From Flavobacteriales bacterium (GTDB taxonomy: Bacteria; Bacteroidota; Bacteroidia; Flavobacteriales_C; GCA-002722245): a stretch of 64,000 nt of DNA. This document shows, piece by piece, positions 58,323-64,000 of the stretch. Each line of letters opens with the position of its first letter. Positions within the stretch are counted from its first letter, which is position 1. Both the position numbers and the translations under genes were made by a program. Under the pieces are notes generated by a model. That model saw nothing but the letters and a program-made list of their open reading frames with translations. It had not been told where the DNA came from and ran no database searches. Location of the stretch: positions 5,110 to 69,109 of the forward strand of contig JBMTCG010000004.1 in the NCBI GenBank assembly GCA_049430665.1, read 5' to 3'.

Positions 58323-59519
58323 TTATAAAATCTCTGTATCGTAATTCAACTTTGTTTTGGTAAACAGTAATGCCATCATCATGGTGACTGTAGACAATAT
58401 TATAACAAAAAGTAAAATTCCTTCATTAAATAAATCACTTTTCCACTGTTGAGGAATACTATAAAATAAAACAATAGTAATCAACCCTCTGGGGGCAATA
58501 AATAATTCGGGAAAAACATTGATTCGAGAAATAAAGCGAAGAAAAACATAACGGGTTACAAGAATAGTTAGCATGACCACAAAACCTAAAACGAACACAT
58601 TTTTATCTTTCAACAAAGATAAATTAATGGTATAACCAAAAATTAAAAAGAAAAAAGTACGCACAATAAATGCTGTTTCTGCGGTAATAATTTTGAGCTC
58701 ACGAGTTACTAATTTTAATTTCTCGGGATGAAGGTAATCAGCTAGCTTACCCTTAATAAACAGATTGGCATTGTTCAACATTACACCAAAAACAAGTATC
58801 AAGAGCAAAGAAGGTAGGTGAAAAATTTTACTTACAGAATACACTAAAATCAGAGAAGCAAAAATTAAATAAAACTTTGCGTGAGAACGACTATAGTTAA
58901 GCAATAACAACAGAAGAAAAGTGCTTAACAACGACACTACAACAATCAGAAAAAAGGAGACCCCCAATTCTAAAAAAGAAGAAAAACTGCCTATTTCAGA
59001 ACCAATCACATAATTAAAAAGCATGATGCCTAAAATATCTGAAAAAGAAGTTTCATAAATAATAAATTCTCTCTTTTCTGGCGACAATTTACTTACGCTT
59101 GGTATTGCAATAGCACTGCTTATAATACCCAATGGAACAGCGTAAACAATAGCTGTTCGTAGAGGCATGGCTAATGAATAATAAAAAATAGCGCCAATAA
59201 CCGCAGAAGTGACAATCAAAATGAATAATGCCGACAAAAATGATTTTCCTATCAATGGAATTTTTTTTCTACTTAATTTTAAATCAAGAGCCCCTTCCAA
59301 AACAATAAAAATTAAACCCACTACCCCCAGCAATTCTAATAAAAAAGGGGTATTAGGTATATTTACATCAAATTCATTTCCTAAAAATTGTATACCAACA
59401 CCCGCACTAATAAGCATTATAACAGAAGGCACTCTTAATTTTTCGCTAACAACATTAAAGATGTAAGACAATACAACTAAAATGCAAATACTTATTAAAA
59501 TGTAGTAAATGTTGGGCAC
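58323..59519 (-). CDS. Cation:proton antiporter (CPA1/NhaP-like)
   Basis: VGLIFIVLEGALDL, ISSAIAIPS, YETSFSDILGI, APRGLIT; GTG start inferred (ORF track start 59594). Confidence 0.85.
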   Translation of the reverse strand: MPNIYYILISICILVVLSYIFNVVSEKLRVPSVIMLISAGVGIQFLGNEFDVNIPNTPFLLELLGVVGLIFIVLEGALDLKLSRKKIPLIGKSFLSALFILIVTSAVIGAIFYYSLAMPLRTAIVYAVPLGIISSAIAIPSVSKLSPEKREFIIYETSFSDILGIMLFNYVIGSEIGSFSSFLELGVSFFLIVVVSLLSTFLLLLLLNYSRSHAKFYLIFASLILVYSVSKIFHLPSLLLILVFGVMLNNANLFIKGKLADYLHPEKLKLVTRELKIITAETAFIVRTFFFLIFGYTINLSLLKDKNVFVLGFVVMLTILVTRYVFLRFISRINVFPELFIAPRGLITIVLFYSIPQQWKSDLFNEGILLFVIILSTVTMMMALLFTKTKLNYDTEIL

Positions 59520-59590
59520 AGGGATAATTTGCAATAAACTTAAGTATATCGTTTTACATAACAAAAGCATATTGAATTTTATGAAATATT

Positions 59591-61825
59591 TCAAACAAGC
59601 TCCTCATACATCAATAACTTTAATAATAACTCAATCACATTTTTCTGTTGTTTTAGATTGTATTTAGCATCACTTTGCATTAATCCTACTTTGATTGAAT
59701 ACTGATTAGCTGGTATTACTTTAAACATGTCTTCATCTGTTTTATCGTCTCCAACAGCCATTATAAAATCATATGAATTATTGTTCAACCATAGATTTGC
59801 AGCCATACCTTTATCAATTCCTCTTGCTCTAACTTCTATCACTTTATTCCCTTCAATAATCTGAAAATCTAAATGAGTAGAGAGCTCCATGAGGGAATTA
59901 ATTAATTCTCTCGATCTCAAAAAGCCGAGTTCTGCTTCTGCATTTCGATAATGCCATGCTAGAGAAAGTGTTTTTTCTTCTGTAAAAGTTCCCGCACATC
60001 TCTCAGTATATAAATTAAAAATTGACTGAACGGCTTCCTTCCACTCCACTTTTACAGGTATAGTTTGCTTCCACGATTCACCAAAATGCTTAATAAATGC
60101 ACCATGCTCGGCTACCAAACTTATAGGAATATTAGCAAACCATTTTTCAAGCACCTCCATTCCTCTTCCACTGATAACAACGACCTCATTTCGAATATCC
60201 GACGACAGCATCAATAGAAGATTCAGAATATCTTCGTTAGGTGCTGCCAAATGTGGTAATTTTGCTAAAGGAGAAAGAGTGCCATCGTAATCTAACAGAA
60301 ACAGCCTTTTCCGTGAAACACAATATTTTTGTTGTAAATCAATTTCTATTAAAGGCGTAATTTCCTTTACATTAAGTTTCTTTTGCATATTTTTTTGTTG
60401 AATTAGTTGAGTAATGAAATCTTCGGCCCACTTCATAACATCGTAACTTTTAATTCGGTTTTGCATCACTTCATTACGAGCTACTTGTTCGTTAACAGGC
60501 ATGGTTAAAGCCAAATGAATACTATCGGCAATTTCTTTTCTATCAGTGGGATTCACTAAAATAGCCTCTCCCAATTCCGATGCAGCACCTGCTGTTTCAC
60601 TCAATATCAATACACCTTTCTTATCGGTACGACTGGCAATAAACTCCTTGGAAACTAAATTCATTCCATCTCTTACTGGGGTTATTAACGCTACATCAGC
60701 CGATAGATACAAAGCAACCAGGTTTTTAAAATCGAGAGATTTGTACTGATACACAATGGGAGTCCAATCTACACTACCGTATTTTCCATTTATACTGCTT
60801 ACCAAGCCTTCAATTTCTTTCTTTGTTTCCGAATATTTAGTAATAATATCTCGTGAAGGAACAACTAGGAGAATGAACACTACCTTTCTTTGATACTGGG
60901 GGAAGCGATTCAAAAACAACTCAAAACTTTCTAACTTATTAAGCAAACCTTTGGCATAATCTAACCTATCAACAGAAATAATCACATGTAGATCATACAG
61001 TTTCTTTTTAATTTTATTTCGTTCATTAAAAGTATTCGAATCAAGAGAACACGCATTAAATTTATTGTAATCAATACTAATTGGAAAAGTATCTACCGTT
61101 ACACTTCTTTCTGGCGTAATGATGAGCCGCAAGGAATGGTCGTAATCTAAAATTTGTCGGGTTGATTTTAAAAAATGCTGCACATAATCGTTGGTATGCA
61201 AACCAATCAAATCGGCACCCAAAATACCCTTCAAAACGCTTTTTCTCCATACACTAGGCAACAATCGAAAAAGCTCGTACGAGGGAAAAGGAATATGCAG
61301 AAAAAAACCAATTGTAGCATTGGGTAAATATTTCCGAAGCAATGCAGGCAAAAGCATTAAATGATAATCATGAATCCAAATAATATCATGAGGACGATAT
61401 AACTGTAAAATTTTTTTACAAAAAAGATGATTTGCTTCTTCAAAAGCCGTAAAACATTCATCGGAAAATTTTGCATAAGAAGGAAAATAATGAAACAAGG
61501 GCCAGATAGTATCATTACAAAAACCATTATAAAATTTATTTTGAGTATCGGTAGGAATAAATACTGGAGCAATCTCAAACTCTTTATGAATGATACTTCC
61601 CGACGGAAACTTCTCGTTAAATTTCATTTCTGAAATATCTGAAGTACCTATCCACAAGGGACGTTCTACTTCCGCGGAAAATTTAGCATGATTGGTTTTT
61701 TGAACATATGAAATAGTACTAGACACTAAACCACCCGAACTTTGTGAAAAAACCAATTCGCCTTTCTTTTCTGTTATTCTAAAAGGCAATCGGTTAGATA
61801 CAATTAACAGCCTACTTTTTTTCAT
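59591..61825 (-). CDS. otsAB: Bifunctional trehalose-6-phosphate synthase/phosphatase (GT20 + HAD)
   Basis: VSNRLP, GGLVS, WPLFHY, WIHDYHLMLLP, FFLHIPFPS, VDRLDY.KG, DGMNLVSKEF, LDYDGTL, GDDKTDEDMF. Confidence 0.95.
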   Translation of the reverse strand: MKKSRLLIVSNRLPFRITEKKGELVFSQSSGGLVSSTISYVQKTNHAKFSAEVERPLWIGTSDISEMKFNEKFPSGSIIHKEFEIAPVFIPTDTQNKFYNGFCNDTIWPLFHYFPSYAKFSDECFTAFEEANHLFCKKILQLYRPHDIIWIHDYHLMLLPALLRKYLPNATIGFFLHIPFPSYELFRLLPSVWRKSVLKGILGADLIGLHTNDYVQHFLKSTRQILDYDHSLRLIITPERSVTVDTFPISIDYNKFNACSLDSNTFNERNKIKKKLYDLHVIISVDRLDYAKGLLNKLESFELFLNRFPQYQRKVVFILLVVPSRDIITKYSETKKEIEGLVSSINGKYGSVDWTPIVYQYKSLDFKNLVALYLSADVALITPVRDGMNLVSKEFIASRTDKKGVLILSETAGAASELGEAILVNPTDRKEIADSIHLALTMPVNEQVARNEVMQNRIKSYDVMKWAEDFITQLIQQKNMQKKLNVKEITPLIEIDLQQKYCVSRKRLFLLDYDGTLSPLAKLPHLAAPNEDILNLLLMLSSDIRNEVVVISGRGMEVLEKWFANIPISLVAEHGAFIKHFGESWKQTIPVKVEWKEAVQSIFNLYTERCAGTFTEEKTLSLAWHYRNAEAELGFLRSRELINSLMELSTHLDFQIIEGNKVIEVRARGIDKGMAANLWLNNNSYDFIMAVGDDKTDEDMFKVIPANQYSIKVGLMQSDAKYNLKQQKNVIELLLKLLMYEELV

Positions 61826-61826
61826 A

Positions 61827-63041
61827 TTATACATTTTCAAATTCATTAATTAGTCTAACAAAAACCGCGTTTGTCCACGCGAAACCACTTTGAGTGGGGT
61901 ATCTATCGGGATTAAACTCACCAACACCTCTCTTAACAACATTGTGTTTTTCCCAAAACTTCCCTGTTTCTATAAATAATTCATGATTCATATCTAACCA
62001 TTTCTTGGCAATTCTTTCTGCATCATTTTTATATCCATAATTCAACAAACCTTTAACCACTATCCATTGCTGATGAGGCCATCCATTAGGACAATCGTGT
62101 TGTTTGGTGTATTCAGAAAGGTTATACGCCTGCGTATTTAGCACCCCTCCCTTACTTTCTAAAAGAGGTAAAATGTATTTTACAATTCGTTCAGCCTGTT
62201 TTTCGCTTGCCATTTTGGCCCATAAAGGATAGAATCCTGCCACAGAAATAAAACTACTTTGCTCACCCAAAAATTTATTGTAATCAAAAAAGAAGTTTTT
62301 TTCCTCATTCCACATTAACTCCATTATCATATTTTTTCTCTTAAGTGCCTGCTCTTTATAATACTTATGCTTATCGTAATTTTTTAAAAGGCGGAACACT
62401 TCACTCAAGTCTGTCTCATATTTATAAAGACAGGTATTTAAATCAATGGGTAAATAATCTAAACATCTATCATTAAATCGAGAGGTCATGTCCCACCCCG
62501 ATTCATGTTCGGCACCAAGGTGAGTAATAAAATGATCACAGTAGCGCGAAAGACCTTTATAAACAATGTGTTTCTCTGTTAGACCCTCACTCATCCAATA
62601 ATTTTTCAACTCCATTTCAGCTATGTTCACTGCCTTTTTTAGCCACAACAAATCTTTTGTATGTTCATAAATTTCTAAAGCCATGGATGTTAAAAAAGGA
62701 ATTTGAGAAGTACCAAGATTGTAGTACCTATTTCTCATCGGCATAATTCCAAAACGTTTGAACAAGTAAATAAAATTATCTACCATACCTTGAGCAAGTG
62801 ATACTTTATTTGATTTCACCAAACCCAAAATGGTAAAATAGCTATCCCAATAAAATTGATCTTTTTTAAAAATATCATCATTAGGCGATACATATTTATG
62901 AGGTAGCCCCAAATGTATCTGCCTATCAGAAGTATGAGAATAAGTTATTTTTGTCCAAAATCGCTCAATATAATCCAAGCTTAGTTTATAATTTTCTTTT
63001 TGTATCATATCATGTTTTTTGAAAATATTTAAATTCATCAT
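61827..63041 (-). CDS. Compact GH37 trehalase-like glycoside hydrolase, no signal peptide
   Basis: YWDSYF, ESGWD, PIDLN, PNGW, GFAWTNAV; alternative start at 63008. Confidence 0.85.
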   Translation of the reverse strand: MMNLNIFKKHDMIQKENYKLSLDYIERFWTKITYSHTSDRQIHLGLPHKYVSPNDDIFKKDQFYWDSYFTILGLVKSNKVSLAQGMVDNFIYLFKRFGIMPMRNRYYNLGTSQIPFLTSMALEIYEHTKDLLWLKKAVNIAEMELKNYWMSEGLTEKHIVYKGLSRYCDHFITHLGAEHESGWDMTSRFNDRCLDYLPIDLNTCLYKYETDLSEVFRLLKNYDKHKYYKEQALKRKNMIMELMWNEEKNFFFDYNKFLGEQSSFISVAGFYPLWAKMASEKQAERIVKYILPLLESKGGVLNTQAYNLSEYTKQHDCPNGWPHQQWIVVKGLLNYGYKNDAERIAKKWLDMNHELFIETGKFWEKHNVVKRGVGEFNPDRYPTQSGFAWTNAVFVRLINEFENV

Positions 63042-63043
63042 TT

Positions 63044-63110
63044 AAAAAAGCCGTAGTTTCTACTGAGGGAATAGGCAACTGAAGGTTAGGAAAGAAACTA
63101 CGGCCGGGGT
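63044..63110 (-). promoter_or_regulatory. Attenuator-like leader hairpin upstream of the trehalose operon
   Basis: gccgtagtttct-N31-agaaactacggc-tttttt on the minus strand. Confidence 0.6.
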
Positions 63111-63260: not shown

Positions 63261-63602
63261 TTAAATTAAAAGGGAACAATACCGTATAGGGTAATCTATA
63301 CAGCAGAAAGGCAAGGTAGAATGGCATACTAAAACCTTTACTTTATTTAAACACAAAGACTCCTTTTTCTTTGCACCTAAATAAACATTATCTAAGCTAC
63401 AAACCTGCTTATACTTACTGTAATTGTTGTCGATGTATTTCACAACACACAAAATCTTTTTTACAGGCTGTCGCTGAGTTGAATAATCATACTTCACATG
63501 ATGAGAAGTAGGCAATAGAGCACTAATCATCAAATTAAAAGTGATGAATACAGCAGCTGAAAAAACAAAGAAGCAACTAATTATTTTAAATATTTTTTTC
63601 AT
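63261..63602 (-). CDS. Small hypothetical protein, N-terminal hydrophobic helix, Cys-rich C-terminus
   Basis: 113-aa ORF ending CCIDYPIRYCSLLI. Confidence 0.6.
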   Translation of the reverse strand: MKKIFKIISCFFVFSAAVFITFNLMISALLPTSHHVKYDYSTQRQPVKKILCVVKYIDNNYSKYKQVCSLDNVYLGAKKKESLCLNKVKVLVCHSTLPFCCIDYPIRYCSLLI

Positions 63603-63662: not shown

Positions 63663-64000
63663 TTAACAAAACTTCGCTAAAAACTCATCTTTCTTAGCCG
63701 GCGACACATCCACCTCAGCCCCATCACTCATCGTTACAAATCCGCCTTTGCCTTTGGTATATTTTGTTACATATTGAATATTCACCAAATGCGATTTATG
63801 CACACGAACAAAATCAAACTCAGTTAAACAATCTTCATAGAATTTAAGTGTACGACAAATCATTAATTTCTTGCCCGATGTAAGATAAAAATTAGTGAAA
63901 TTATCTGCTGCTTCACAACGCACAACATCGGCAACATTAATCACTTCAAAACCTTCTAAAATGGGTAGTATTATTTTCTTCGTTTGCTTACTGATGCTCT
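63663..64000 (-). CDS. LytTR-family response regulator (partial, runs off the right edge)
   Basis: KIILPILEGFEVINVADVVRCEAADNFT, RTLK.YE, FVRVHKSHLVN. Confidence 0.92.
   Translation of the reverse strand, partial: SISKQTKKIILPILEGFEVINVADVVRCEAADNFTNFYLTSGKKLMICRTLKFYEDCLTEFDFVRVHKSHLVNIQYVTKYTKGKGGFVTMSDGAEVDVSPAKKDEFLAKFC

What the first reader, a model, noticed from the sequence alone, without database searches (positions are those of the whole stretch)
61827..63041. Compact GH37 enzyme in which several canonical trehalase residues appear replaced
Established: E. coli Tre37A uses Asp312 (WDAPNGW) and Glu496 (GEYPLQDGFGWTN) as catalysts, and binds substrate through PGGRF, PNG, SRSQPP and RPES motifs. 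Seen: the Asp is kept (HDCPNGW). The Glu position reads DRYPTQSGFAWTN (Arg), with a Glu five residues earlier. The binding motifs read PNDDIF, PMR and GTSQIP, and the RPES segment is missing (SRYCDHFITHLGAEHESGWD). The protein is only ~400 aa and has no signal peptide. Inference: a rewired active site, another substrate, or a non-catalytic partner of TPS/TPP. The alignment was done from memory and by eye.
Basis: partly seen in the sequence, partly recalled or inferred. Interest (0 to 1): 0.62.

Follow-up and report, generated by a model that had tools for sequence, protein, structure and literature searches.

The report
Short trehalase with relocated sugar-binding arginines

Summary
The ORF at 61827-63041 (-) is real and is a confident GH37 enzyme: Pfam Trehalase E 4e-81, AlphaFold pLDDT 95, TM 0.87 to E. 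coli Tre37A.

The central claim, that the catalytic Glu is replaced by Arg, rests on a mis-remembered map. In E. coli TreA, Asp312 lies in SGWD(312)FSSRW and Glu496 in LVE(496)KYDV. WDAPNGW holds Asp448 and GEYPLQ holds Glu511. The true equivalents here, D184 (ESGWD) and E364 (WEKHN), are kept and are invariant in 119 close homologues.

The changes to the binding motifs are real and conserved across the clade:
- No Arg stands at the positions of R152, R205 or R277, the three "essential" arginines.
- N196 is Met and W447 is His.
- The RPES loop and the glycine-rich lid are absent.
- R103, R380 and a C-D-H...H...E-H block are invariant instead.

The clade is one derived branch of a wide radiation of about 390-430-aa GH37 proteins. 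It occurs in Bacteroidota, DPANN archaea and CPR bacteria. In Bacteroidota it sits directly upstream of TPS/TPP.

This genome has no other recognisable trehalase, and its congeners lack the whole module. The most likely reading is an active cytoplasmic trehalase with a rewired sugar pocket; a changed substrate is not excluded. Interest is modest.

The parts
61827..63041 (-). Longest ORF of the GH37 gene (404 codons plus stop). The probable true CDS is 61827-63008 (393 aa, start at M12).
   Evidence: ORF list and translation. Pfam Trehalase E 4.2e-81. Homologue lengths 390-395 aa and the N-terminal alignment.
62490..62492 (-). D184 in ESGWDMTSRF: equivalent of the catalytic acid Asp312 of E. 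coli Tre37A (Nth1 D478).
   Evidence: Alignments. 119/119 in close homologues. Motif 4 per PMC10969515.
61950..61952 (-). E364 in FWEKHN: equivalent of the catalytic base Glu496 (Nth1 E674).
   Evidence: Alignments. 119/119. Invariant in A1.
62844..62855 (-). F63-Y64-W65-D66, the conserved second half of trehalase signature 1 (YWD). D66 corresponds to Asp160, my candidate for the clan GH-G 'fixer' Asp of subsite -1.
   Evidence: The clan GH-G description is in PMC13671375; assigning the fixer role to Asp160 is my inference.
62865..62883 (-). P53-N-D-D-I-F-K59 replaces PGGRF(R). No Arg at the Arg152 position (I57 or D56, depending on the alignment).
   Evidence: I57 is 116/119 Ile.
62697..62741 (-). 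P101-MRNRYYNLGTSQI-P115 replaces PNGNRSYYLSRSQPP. N196 becomes M102, G197 becomes R103 (invariant), R205 becomes T111, P208 becomes I114.
   Evidence: Ungapped alignment. Clade conservation: M 114/119, R 119/119, T/I/V 117/119.
62502..62546 (-). R166-Y-C-D-H-F-I-T-H-L-G-A-E-H-E180: the short connector that stands where canonical enzymes carry the TPRPES loop plus about 26 further residues. C168, D169, H170, H174, E178, H179 and E180 are invariant in the clade.
62079..62102 (-). Q314-H-D-C-P-N-G-W321, trehalase signature 2 with W447 replaced by H315.
   Evidence: H 119/119. Deeper clade members keep W.
61866..61904 (-). R380-YPTQSGFAWTN: lid-loop / C-terminal block. The GGGGEY glycine-rich lid is absent.
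   Evidence: R 119/119. Among 129 representatives, Arg occurs here only in those without an RPES loop.
59591..61825 (-). Fused TPS/TPP (OtsA-OtsB) gene. Its probable start ATG is at 61823-61825, 1 nt after the GH37 stop.
   Evidence: Pfam GT20 E 1e-145 plus Trehalose_PPase E 6e-51; NCBIfam NF011071 945.8 bits, above its cut-off. Junction sequence.

Best explanation
The gene encodes a catalytically competent, cytoplasmic, inverting alpha-glucosidase of family GH37. It is most probably an alpha,alpha-trehalase that turns over the trehalose made by the TPS/TPP encoded 1 nt downstream.

Shown:
- GH37 fold and family membership.
- An intact acid (D184) and base (E364), plus the conserved YWD, SQ-P, SGWD--SRF, Q-D-PNGW, EK and Y--Q-GF-WTN blocks.
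- Membership of one derived clade of the short (about 390-430 aa) GH37 radiation. In this clade Arg152, Asn196, Arg205 and the Arg277/Glu279 RPES loop are gone, and R103, R380 and C168/H170/H174/H179 are fixed.

Inferred:
- R103 (next to the lost Asn196) and R380 (on the lid, at the Glu511 position) have taken over the sugar-hydroxyl contacts of the lost arginines. The pocket would then be rebuilt from different loops around an unchanged catalytic core.
- Sister sequences that carry both R103 and R205 look like the evolutionary intermediate.

Physiological role (inferred): the enzyme is transcribed with TPS/TPP, a polytopic membrane protein and a ClC channel as an osmotic-stress module. It would mobilise trehalose when stress ends, like E. 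coli TreF or Nostoc TreH, presumably with its activity held down while solute or ion levels are high.
For: Family and fold:
- Pfam PF01204 273.8 bits.
- AlphaFold pLDDT 95.3, pTM 0.94.
- Foldseek top hits are E. coli Tre37A 2jg0/2jf4, TMq 0.86-0.87, rmsd 2.4-2.5 A.

Catalysts:
- The numbering of E. coli TreA was checked on the K-12 sequence.
- D184/E364 align to D312/E496 in five independent alignments.
- Both are 119/119 conserved.
- The literature places the catalysts in the SGxD and EK[YF]D motifs (PMC10969515).

The rewiring is selected, not decay:
- M102 114/119, R103 119/119, T/I/V111 117/119, C168-D169-H170 119/119, H174 118/119, H179 119/119, H315 119/119, R380 119/119.
- The same pattern holds in archaeal and CPR members at 50-64% identity.
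- On the tree the pattern needs as few as one origin, with 'A-R-R' intermediates as neighbours.
- Arg at the 511 position is found in 0/30 representatives with an RPES loop and in 28/99 without one.

Link to trehalose:
- The clade gene lies immediately upstream of TPS or TPS/TPP in the window and in L005, L010, L013, L085, L086 and the P0050 locus. It lies within 4 kb of it in L004 and L020. TPP, a Na/H exchanger, ClC or MscS are often alongside.
- G044 has both genes on one contig.
- The window's 97.8%-complete genome has one GH37, one TPS, no GH65 and no GH15.

Precedents for a trehalase co-regulated or clustered with synthesis genes: TreF and Nostoc treZYH.
Against: - No member of this clade, and to my knowledge no short GH37, has been assayed.
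- Three arginines reported as necessary for activity in insect trehalases (PMC6007452) are all absent, and Asn196 and Trp447 are changed. Trehalose specificity therefore cannot be assumed.
- NCBIfam TreA/TreF models score far below their cut-offs (200 against 512 bits).
- I could not obtain model coordinates, so the proposal that R103 and R380 reach the sugar is untested.
- Twelve DPANN/CPR/other genomes that carry the clade gene have no GT20 trehalose-phosphate synthase. There the substrate must come from elsewhere or be something else.
- Co-transcribing a trehalase with TPS/TPP needs post-transcriptional control, for which there is no evidence here.
Confidence: 0.6

Rival explanations
1. Active GH37 hydrolase with a changed substrate. 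The rebuilt pocket (new Arg and His residues, possibly a metal site) binds something other than free trehalose, for example trehalose-6-phosphate or another compatible-solute alpha-glucoside. This clade would then be the first GH37 group with a non-trehalase specificity.
For: - All three 'essential' arginines, Asn196, the RPES loop and the glycine-rich lid are missing or replaced, and the replacements are under strong purifying selection.
- In clan GH-G the -1 subsite and catalysts are conserved, while the +1 subsite differs between specificities (PMC13671375).
- Clade members occur in DPANN/CPR genomes without a GT20 synthase and without sugar genes nearby.
- The scores are below the NCBIfam TreA/TreF cut-offs.
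Against: - Tight and repeated linkage to TPS/TPP in Bacteroidota.
- In the window's genome it is the only candidate for degrading the trehalose the cell can make.
- The RPES and R152 losses are shared by the whole short radiation, including forms that keep N196 and R205, so they are not specific to this clade.
- Net charge of the exchanged residues is roughly unchanged, so nothing points to an anionic substrate.
Confidence: 0.25
2. One reading: the catalytic base Glu496 has been replaced by Arg. On this view catalysis is rewired to an upstream Glu, or the protein is a non-catalytic partner of TPS/TPP.
For: Only the by-eye alignment of DRYPTQSGFAWTN with GEYPLQDGFGWTN. That alignment is itself correct.
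Against: - The aligned E. coli residue is Glu511, not Glu496.
- Glu496 aligns with the invariant E364, and Asp312 with the invariant D184.
- The trehalase Nth1 has Lys at the 511 position.
- About a quarter of the GH37 representatives examined have Arg there (28 of 129).
- The whole catalytic core is under strong constraint, which a pseudoenzyme would not need.
Confidence: 0.03
3. An ordinary trehalase in which the substitutions are neutral drift of peripheral residues, with no relocation of binding function and nothing special about the clade.
For: - Family-level scores are high.
- The fold is unchanged.
- The annotation pipelines already call these proteins alpha,alpha-trehalase.
Against: The substituted positions are nearly invariant in canonical GH37 (R152, N196, R205, E279, W447 at 90% or more in A2). 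They are replaced by residues that are themselves invariant in the clade. This is the signature of a functional exchange, not drift.
Confidence: 0.1

Closest known systems
E. coli periplasmic trehalase Tre37A/TreA (PDB 2JF4, 2JG0, 2JJB, 2WYN) and cytoplasmic TreF, GH37
   Same: - Same (alpha/alpha)6 barrel (TMq 0.87).
- 29% identity over 400 residues.
- Same acid (D312/D184) and base (E496/E364).
- Same YWDSY, SQ-P, SGWD--SR, Q-D-PNGW, EK and GF-WTN blocks.
- Like TreF, it is cytoplasmic and linked to osmotically controlled trehalose synthesis.
   Different: - About 100 N-terminal residues shorter than mature-length relatives.
- RPES loop (about 26 residues) deleted.
- No Arg at positions 152, 205 and 277; Asn196 is Met; Trp447 is His; Glu511 is Arg.
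- No GGGGEY lid.
- Scores only 200 bits against the TreF model, whose cut-off is 512.
- Encoded inside the synthesis operon rather than at a separate locus.
Yeast neutral trehalase Nth1 (PDB 5M4A, 5JTA, 5N6N), GH37
   Same: - Best sequence match among solved structures (E 5e-46).
- Cytoplasmic.
- ESG-D acid motif with Glu before SG.
- A basic residue (Lys) at the Glu511 position.
   Different: Nth1 keeps RSQPP and the long insertion before the acid motif. It also has N-terminal regulatory and Ca-binding extensions controlled by 14-3-3. None of these is present here.
Nostoc/Anabaena TreH in the treZ-treY-treH cluster
   Same: A GH37-type trehalase gene placed next to the trehalose synthesis genes of a stress pathway (PMC4675709). 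It shows that co-location of synthesis and breakdown genes is a known arrangement.
   Different: - The synthesis route is different (TreY/TreZ from glycogen, not TPS/TPP).
- I did not examine the TreH sequence, so I cannot say whether it is of the short or rewired type.
Other short (about 390-430 aa) GH37 proteins of Saccharibacteria, Chloroflexota, Bacillota and others
   Same: Same compact architecture and the same deletion of the RPES loop (LSRYYDINYLHDLAEAE|SGWD). They usually have no Arg at the 152 position and often have Arg at the 511 position.
   Different: They keep Asn196, Arg205 and Trp447, and they lack R103 and the C-D-H / E-H-E residues. They are also uncharacterised as far as I could find.
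GH63 mannosylglycerate/glucosylglycerate hydrolase (T. thermophilus TTHA0978, PDB 4WVA-C), clan GH-G
   Same: Similar size (about 400-420 aa), a single (alpha/alpha)6 domain, cytoplasmic, acts on a compatible solute. There is a weak Pfam MGH1-like hit (E 4e-16) and a fold match at TM 0.67-0.69.
   Different: Only 15-17% identity. The query scores far better as GH37 (273.8 against 59.8 bits).

Membership tests
GH37 (Pfam PF01204 Trehalase) | Significant match to the family profile, above the curated cut-off | tested here: met
   273.8 bits against a cut-off of 21, E 4.2e-81, in two stretches covering the profile to position 511/512.
GH37 (Pfam PF01204 Trehalase) | (alpha/alpha)6-barrel fold superimposable on Tre37A | tested here: met
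   Model pLDDT 95.3. Foldseek 2jg0/2jf4 E about 1e-26, TMq 0.86-0.87, rmsd 2.4-2.5 A.
GH37 (Pfam PF01204 Trehalase) | Catalytic acid Asp in motif 4, SGxD[T/F][S/T][S/T/Y]R[F/L/W] | tested here: met
   The query has S181-G-W-D184-M-T-S-R-F189. Only the residue after the Asp (Met) departs from the pattern. D is 119/119.
GH37 (Pfam PF01204 Trehalase) | Catalytic base Glu in motif 5, EK[Y/F]D | tested here: met
   E364-K365-H-N in the query; EKYN or EKYD in most clade members. E is 119/119 and K 116/119. It aligns with E496.
GH37 (Pfam PF01204 Trehalase) | Signature motif 1, PGGRFxExY[G/Y]WD[S/T]Y | tested here: not met
   The query reads PNDDIFKKDQFYWDSY. The YWDSY half is kept, the GGR half is lost, and there is a two-residue insertion.
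GH37 (Pfam PF01204 Trehalase) | Signature motif 2, QWD[Y/F]P[N/Y][G/A]W[P/A]P | tested here: inconclusive
   The query reads QHDCPNGWPH. Q, D, P, N, G, W and P are kept; W is His (119/119 in close relatives, W in deeper clade members); the final P is His.
GH37 (Pfam PF01204 Trehalase) | Motif 3, N[A/G]xRxYYxxRSQPP | tested here: not met
   The query reads MRNRYYNLGTSQIP. The first Asn is Met, the Arg before SQ is Thr, and the first Pro is Ile.
Canonical alpha,alpha-trehalases (EC 3.2.1.28) of the TreA/TreF/insect type | Three arginines reported as necessary for activity (Ha R168/R221/R286, equivalent to Ec R152/R205/R277) | tested here: not met
   R152 corresponds to I57 or D56, R205 to T111, and the R277 loop is deleted. 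I mapped the insect numbers to E. coli from the motif and the spacing: 53 residues between the first two Arg, and 35 from the third Arg to the acid.
Canonical alpha,alpha-trehalases (EC 3.2.1.28) of the TreA/TreF/insect type | Glycine-rich lid (GGGGEY) before the YP-Q-GFGWTN block | tested here: not met
   The query reads RGVGEFNPDRYPTQSGFAWTN.
Canonical alpha,alpha-trehalases (EC 3.2.1.28) of the TreA/TreF/insect type | NCBIfam TreA/TreF models above their cut-offs | tested here: not met
   NF009773 TreF scores 200.4 against 512; NF009775 TreA scores 183.8 against 941.
Canonical alpha,alpha-trehalases (EC 3.2.1.28) of the TreA/TreF/insect type | Hydrolysis of trehalose to two glucose with inversion | not testable with these tools
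   There is only indirect support: linkage to TPS/TPP, and it is the sole candidate trehalase in the genome.

The most novel reading that the evidence does not exclude
The R103/R380/Cys-His clade is a functionally distinct GH37 subfamily. One possibility is the first GH37 group with a substrate other than free trehalose (for instance trehalose-6-phosphate or another compatible-solute glucoside). The other is a trehalase whose rebuilt pocket, with a possible Cys/His3 metal or ion site in place of the RPES loop, makes its activity switchable by ionic conditions. The second option would explain why it can be co-transcribed with TPS/TPP, a ClC channel and cation transporters without a futile cycle.
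Probability: 0.2. Interest if true: 0.6.

Novelty: new variant of a known kind. Interest (0 to 1): 0.3.

Why it matters
All characterised GH37 enzymes that I know of are trehalases built on one set of binding residues, and annotation pipelines transfer 'alpha,alpha-trehalase' to every family member. This clade is represented by at least 120 clusters at 90% identity in the search. It occurs in Bacteroidota, DPANN archaea and CPR bacteria. It keeps the catalytic machinery but has exchanged the residues that canonical enzymes use to hold the sugar.

If it is still a trehalase, it is a natural example of a binding site rebuilt from different loops, and a minimal (393 aa) scaffold for enzyme engineering. 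If it is not, many annotations and metabolic reconstructions of trehalose turnover would need revising, including those for reduced episymbiont genomes.

For this particular finding the practical lesson is more modest: the apparent loss of the catalytic Glu came from a mis-remembered residue map.

Tried and rejected
1. Active-site geometry. The structure tool returns confidence and secondary structure only and no coordinates reach the Python box. I therefore could not measure whether R103, R380 or the His residues face the pocket, nor superpose a ligand.

2. Literature on which Tre37A residues contact which subsite. Searches for Arg152/Arg205/Arg277, Nth1 D478/E674 and Arg169/Arg222/Arg287 found nothing in the held library. 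I relied on PMC6007452 for the three essential arginines and on PMC10969515 for the motifs. That Nth1's catalysts are D478 and E674 is my own recollection; it is consistent with the numbering.

3. Search for a characterised short GH37 or a GH37 with another specificity. None was found. TreZ of Zunongwangia is 529 aa. The GH176 paper only compares folds.

4. Gene context in DPANN/CPR members. The neighbours are housekeeping genes (ribosomal protein S13, Cbf5/TruB, TBP, SpoU methylase, AAA ATPase), with one MscS. This says nothing about the substrate.

5. An anionic substrate inferred from the extra Arg and His residues. Rejected as unsupported, because the exchange is roughly charge-neutral: three Arg and two Glu are lost; two Arg and several His are gained.

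6. A compositional island. The GC content of the operon (0.30-0.37) is like that of its surroundings, so composition gives no sign of recent transfer, although the congeners lack the genes.
Full report
**1. What is there**

The minus strand carries an open frame of 404 codons at 61827-63041. It is the first gene of a co-oriented block:
- the GH37 gene;
- a fused TPS/TPP gene (Pfam GT20 E 1e-145 plus Trehalose_PPase E 6e-51; NCBIfam bifunctional model 945.8 bits, above its cut-off);
- a 423-aa polytopic membrane protein;
- a ClC-CBS channel.

The GH37 stop (TAA, 61827-61829) is followed after 1 nt by an ATG that opens the TPS/TPP domain.

Most homologues are 390-395 aa. In my alignment of 121 homologues the commonest N-terminus falls at or within two columns of M12 (69 of 121). 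The true start is therefore probably the ATG at 63006-63008, giving 393 aa. The N-terminus is hydrophilic and has no signal peptide.

**2. Family and fold**

- The protein matches Pfam Trehalase (PF01204) with 273.8 bits, E 4.2e-81.
- It matches every solved GH37 structure by sequence, with Nth1 at E 5e-46 and Tre37A at E 2e-40.
- An AlphaFold model built on 38 sequences has mean pLDDT 95.3 and pTM 0.94.
- Its best structural neighbours are the E. coli Tre37A entries 2jg0 and 2jf4 (TMq 0.86-0.87, rmsd 2.4-2.5 A). Next come the Enterobacter, yeast and Arabidopsis trehalases, and only then the GH63 enzymes.

It is a GH37 (alpha/alpha)6 barrel.

**3.

I fetched treA from E. coli K-12, translated it and numbered the precursor.
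- Asp312 is the D of AASGWD(312)FSSRW.
- Glu496 is the E of KKLVE(496)KYDVS.
- The D of QQWDAPNGW is Asp448.
- The E of GGGGGEYPLQ is Glu511.

The same numbering puts R152 in PGGRF, N196 in PNGNR, R205 in SRSQPP, and R277 and E279 in RPES. It is therefore the numbering used in the literature.

A review states that the two catalytic residues lie in motif 4 (SGxD[T/F][S/T][S/T/Y]R[F/L/W]) and motif 5 (EK[Y/F]D) (PMC10969515). In the phmmer alignment with Nth1, the residues I remember as its catalysts (D478, E674) fall on the same two motifs.

Query D184 (ESGWDMTSRF) pairs with Asp312, and query E364 (FWEKHN) pairs with Glu496, in all of these:
- BLASTP;
- two MAFFT alignments;
- a profile search of the PDB;
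- a profile-profile alignment (hhalign probability 100%, E 1e-110).

Both residues are invariant in 119 close homologues. Both are also nearly invariant in short and long GH37 representatives clustered at 50% identity.

So the catalytic pair is intact. Yeast Nth1, a proven trehalase, has Lys there. The 'Glu five residues earlier' (E375) is variable.

**4. What remains of the observation**

The binding-motif differences are real. In the ungapped stretch PMRNRYYNLGTSQIP against PNGNRSYYLSRSQPP:
- Asn196 is Met102;
- Gly197 is Arg103;
- Arg205 is Thr111;
- Pro208 is Ile114.

PGGRF is PNDDIF with a two-residue insertion. The Arg152 position is Ile57 or Asp56, depending on the alignment, and is never Arg. 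The RPES loop with Arg277 and Glu279, plus about 26 following residues, is deleted and replaced by RYCDHFITHLGAEHE. Trp447 is His315. The glycine-rich lid GGGGEY is RGVGEFNPDRY.

An insect-trehalase paper reports three arginines in conserved motifs as necessary for activity: R168, R221 and R286 in HaTreh-1 (PMC6007452). By motif and spacing these are E. coli R152, R205 and R277. None of the three is Arg in the query.

**5. Selection, not decay**

In canonical long GH37 proteins, R152, N196, R205, E279 and W447 are 90-100% conserved. In the query's clade the replacing residues are just as fixed:
- M102 114/119;
- R103 119/119;
- T/I/V111 117/119;
- C168, D169, H170 119/119;
- H174 118/119;
- E178, H179, E180 119/119;
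- H315 119/119;
- R380 119/119.

The same signature (no Asn at 102, Arg at 103, no Arg at 111, C-D-H, H, E-H-E, Arg at 380) holds in the genomic loci that are 50-69% identical to the query, with a few exceptions. These loci come from Bacteroidota and "Kapaibacteria", and also from DPANN archaea (Nano-, Woese- and Aenigmatarchaeota) and CPR bacteria (Peregrinibacteria, Parcubacteria, Kazan).

**6. Position within GH37**

A maximum-likelihood tree of 82 sequences gives the following picture.
- The clade is a derived branch inside a broad radiation of short (about 390-430 aa) GH37 proteins.
- The signature needs two changes on the free tree, and one origin is not excluded.
- Support for the deeper forks is weak.
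- Its nearest neighbours include Saccharibacteria-type sequences reading A-R-R at positions 102, 103 and 111. They carry both the new and the old arginine and look like an intermediate.
- Further out, short forms keep N196, R205 and W447.

The RPES deletion and the lack of Arg152 are shared by most of the short radiation. They are therefore older than the clade.

Across 129 representatives, Arg at the Glu511 position occurs in 28 of 99 proteins without an RPES loop and in none of 30 with one. This count is not corrected for phylogeny.

I read this as compensation. The lid Arg substitutes for the arginine lost with the RPES loop, and R103 substitutes for R205. This step is inference; I had no coordinates to test it.

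**7. Context and likely role**

In Bacteroidota the clade gene is repeatedly tied to trehalose synthesis.
- It lies directly upstream of TPS or TPS/TPP in the window and in L005, L010, L013, L085, L086 and the P0050 locus.
- It lies within 4 kb of it in L004 and L020.
- A separate TPP, a Na/H exchanger, a ClC channel or MscS often lies beside it.
- Two Bacteroidota loci (L014, L015) have the TPS elsewhere in the genome.

The window's genome (2.74 Mb, 97.8% complete) has exactly one GH37 and one GT20 synthase, and no GH65 or GH15. This protein is therefore the only recognisable way to degrade the trehalose the cell can make.

None of 8 congeneric and 12 confamilial genomes has either the GH37 or the TPS. 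The module is thus an accessory acquisition. A same-class genome (G044) has both genes on one contig.

There are precedents for such pairing. E. coli TreF has low activity at high osmolarity and clears trehalose afterwards. The conserved treZ-treY-treH cluster of Nostoc and Anabaena places a trehalase next to synthesis genes.

In contrast, 12 DPANN/CPR/other genomes with the clade gene have no GT20 synthase (these are MAGs, so absence is provisional). There the gene sits among housekeeping genes. In those organisms the substrate must be imported, made by another route, or be something other than trehalose.

**8. Verdict**

- The best explanation is an active cytoplasmic trehalase with relocated sugar-binding arginines, serving trehalose turnover in an osmotic-stress operon (about 0.6).
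- The main rival is the same chemistry on a different alpha-glucoside (about 0.25).
- I found no characterised member of the clade or of the short radiation. It is therefore a new variant of a known kind, of moderate-to-low interest until it is assayed.

Noticed in passing
window 58323-59594 (-): The 423-aa polytopic membrane protein between TPS/TPP and the ClC channel has no Pfam match better than E 0.05. It has no tblastn match at E 1e-8 or better in the related loci, including those with a Na_H_Exchanger gene (L004).
   Followed up: partly
window 62505-62540 (-), residues C168, H170, H174, H179: The connector that replaces the RPES loop carries an invariant Cys-x-His-x3-His-x4-His pattern, flanked by invariant Asp and Glu. 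This could be a metal or ion site, or it could be direct sugar ligands. Without coordinates I could not test either.
   Followed up: no
loci L006, L008, L009, L011, L012, L022, L024, L025, L028 (archaea) and L007, L017-L019, L023, L026 (CPR): Proteins 50-64% identical to the Bacteroidota enzyme occur in DPANN archaeal and CPR bacterial MAGs, in truly archaeal neighbourhoods (TBP, ribosomal S13, Cbf5). This implies inter-domain transfer of the clade. The 12 genomes tested have no GT20 trehalose-phosphate synthase.
   Followed up: partly
G000 versus G018-G037: Both the GH37 gene and the TPS/TPP gene are absent from all 8 other species of the genus and from 12 genomes of the family. The trehalose/ion-transport operon is therefore accessory in this lineage, although its GC content matches the surroundings.
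   Followed up: partly
window 63044-63110 and 63006-63041: A GC-rich hairpin followed by TTTTTT ends 3 nt before the first in-frame ATG. With the homologue-supported start at M12, about 35 nt separate the U-tract from the start codon.
   Followed up: no
window 63261-63602 (-) and 63663-63998 (-): Upstream of the hairpin lie a 113-aa Cys-rich ORF with one N-terminal hydrophobic helix and no Pfam match, and the LytTR DNA-binding end of a response regulator (E 2e-15). Similar small unannotated ORFs precede the GH37 gene in L004.
   Followed up: no
G044:C14:58167-59348: The clade homologue in a same-class genome (66% identity) is reported with one TAA inside the matched stretch. I did not check whether this lies upstream of the real start or breaks the gene.
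   Followed up: no
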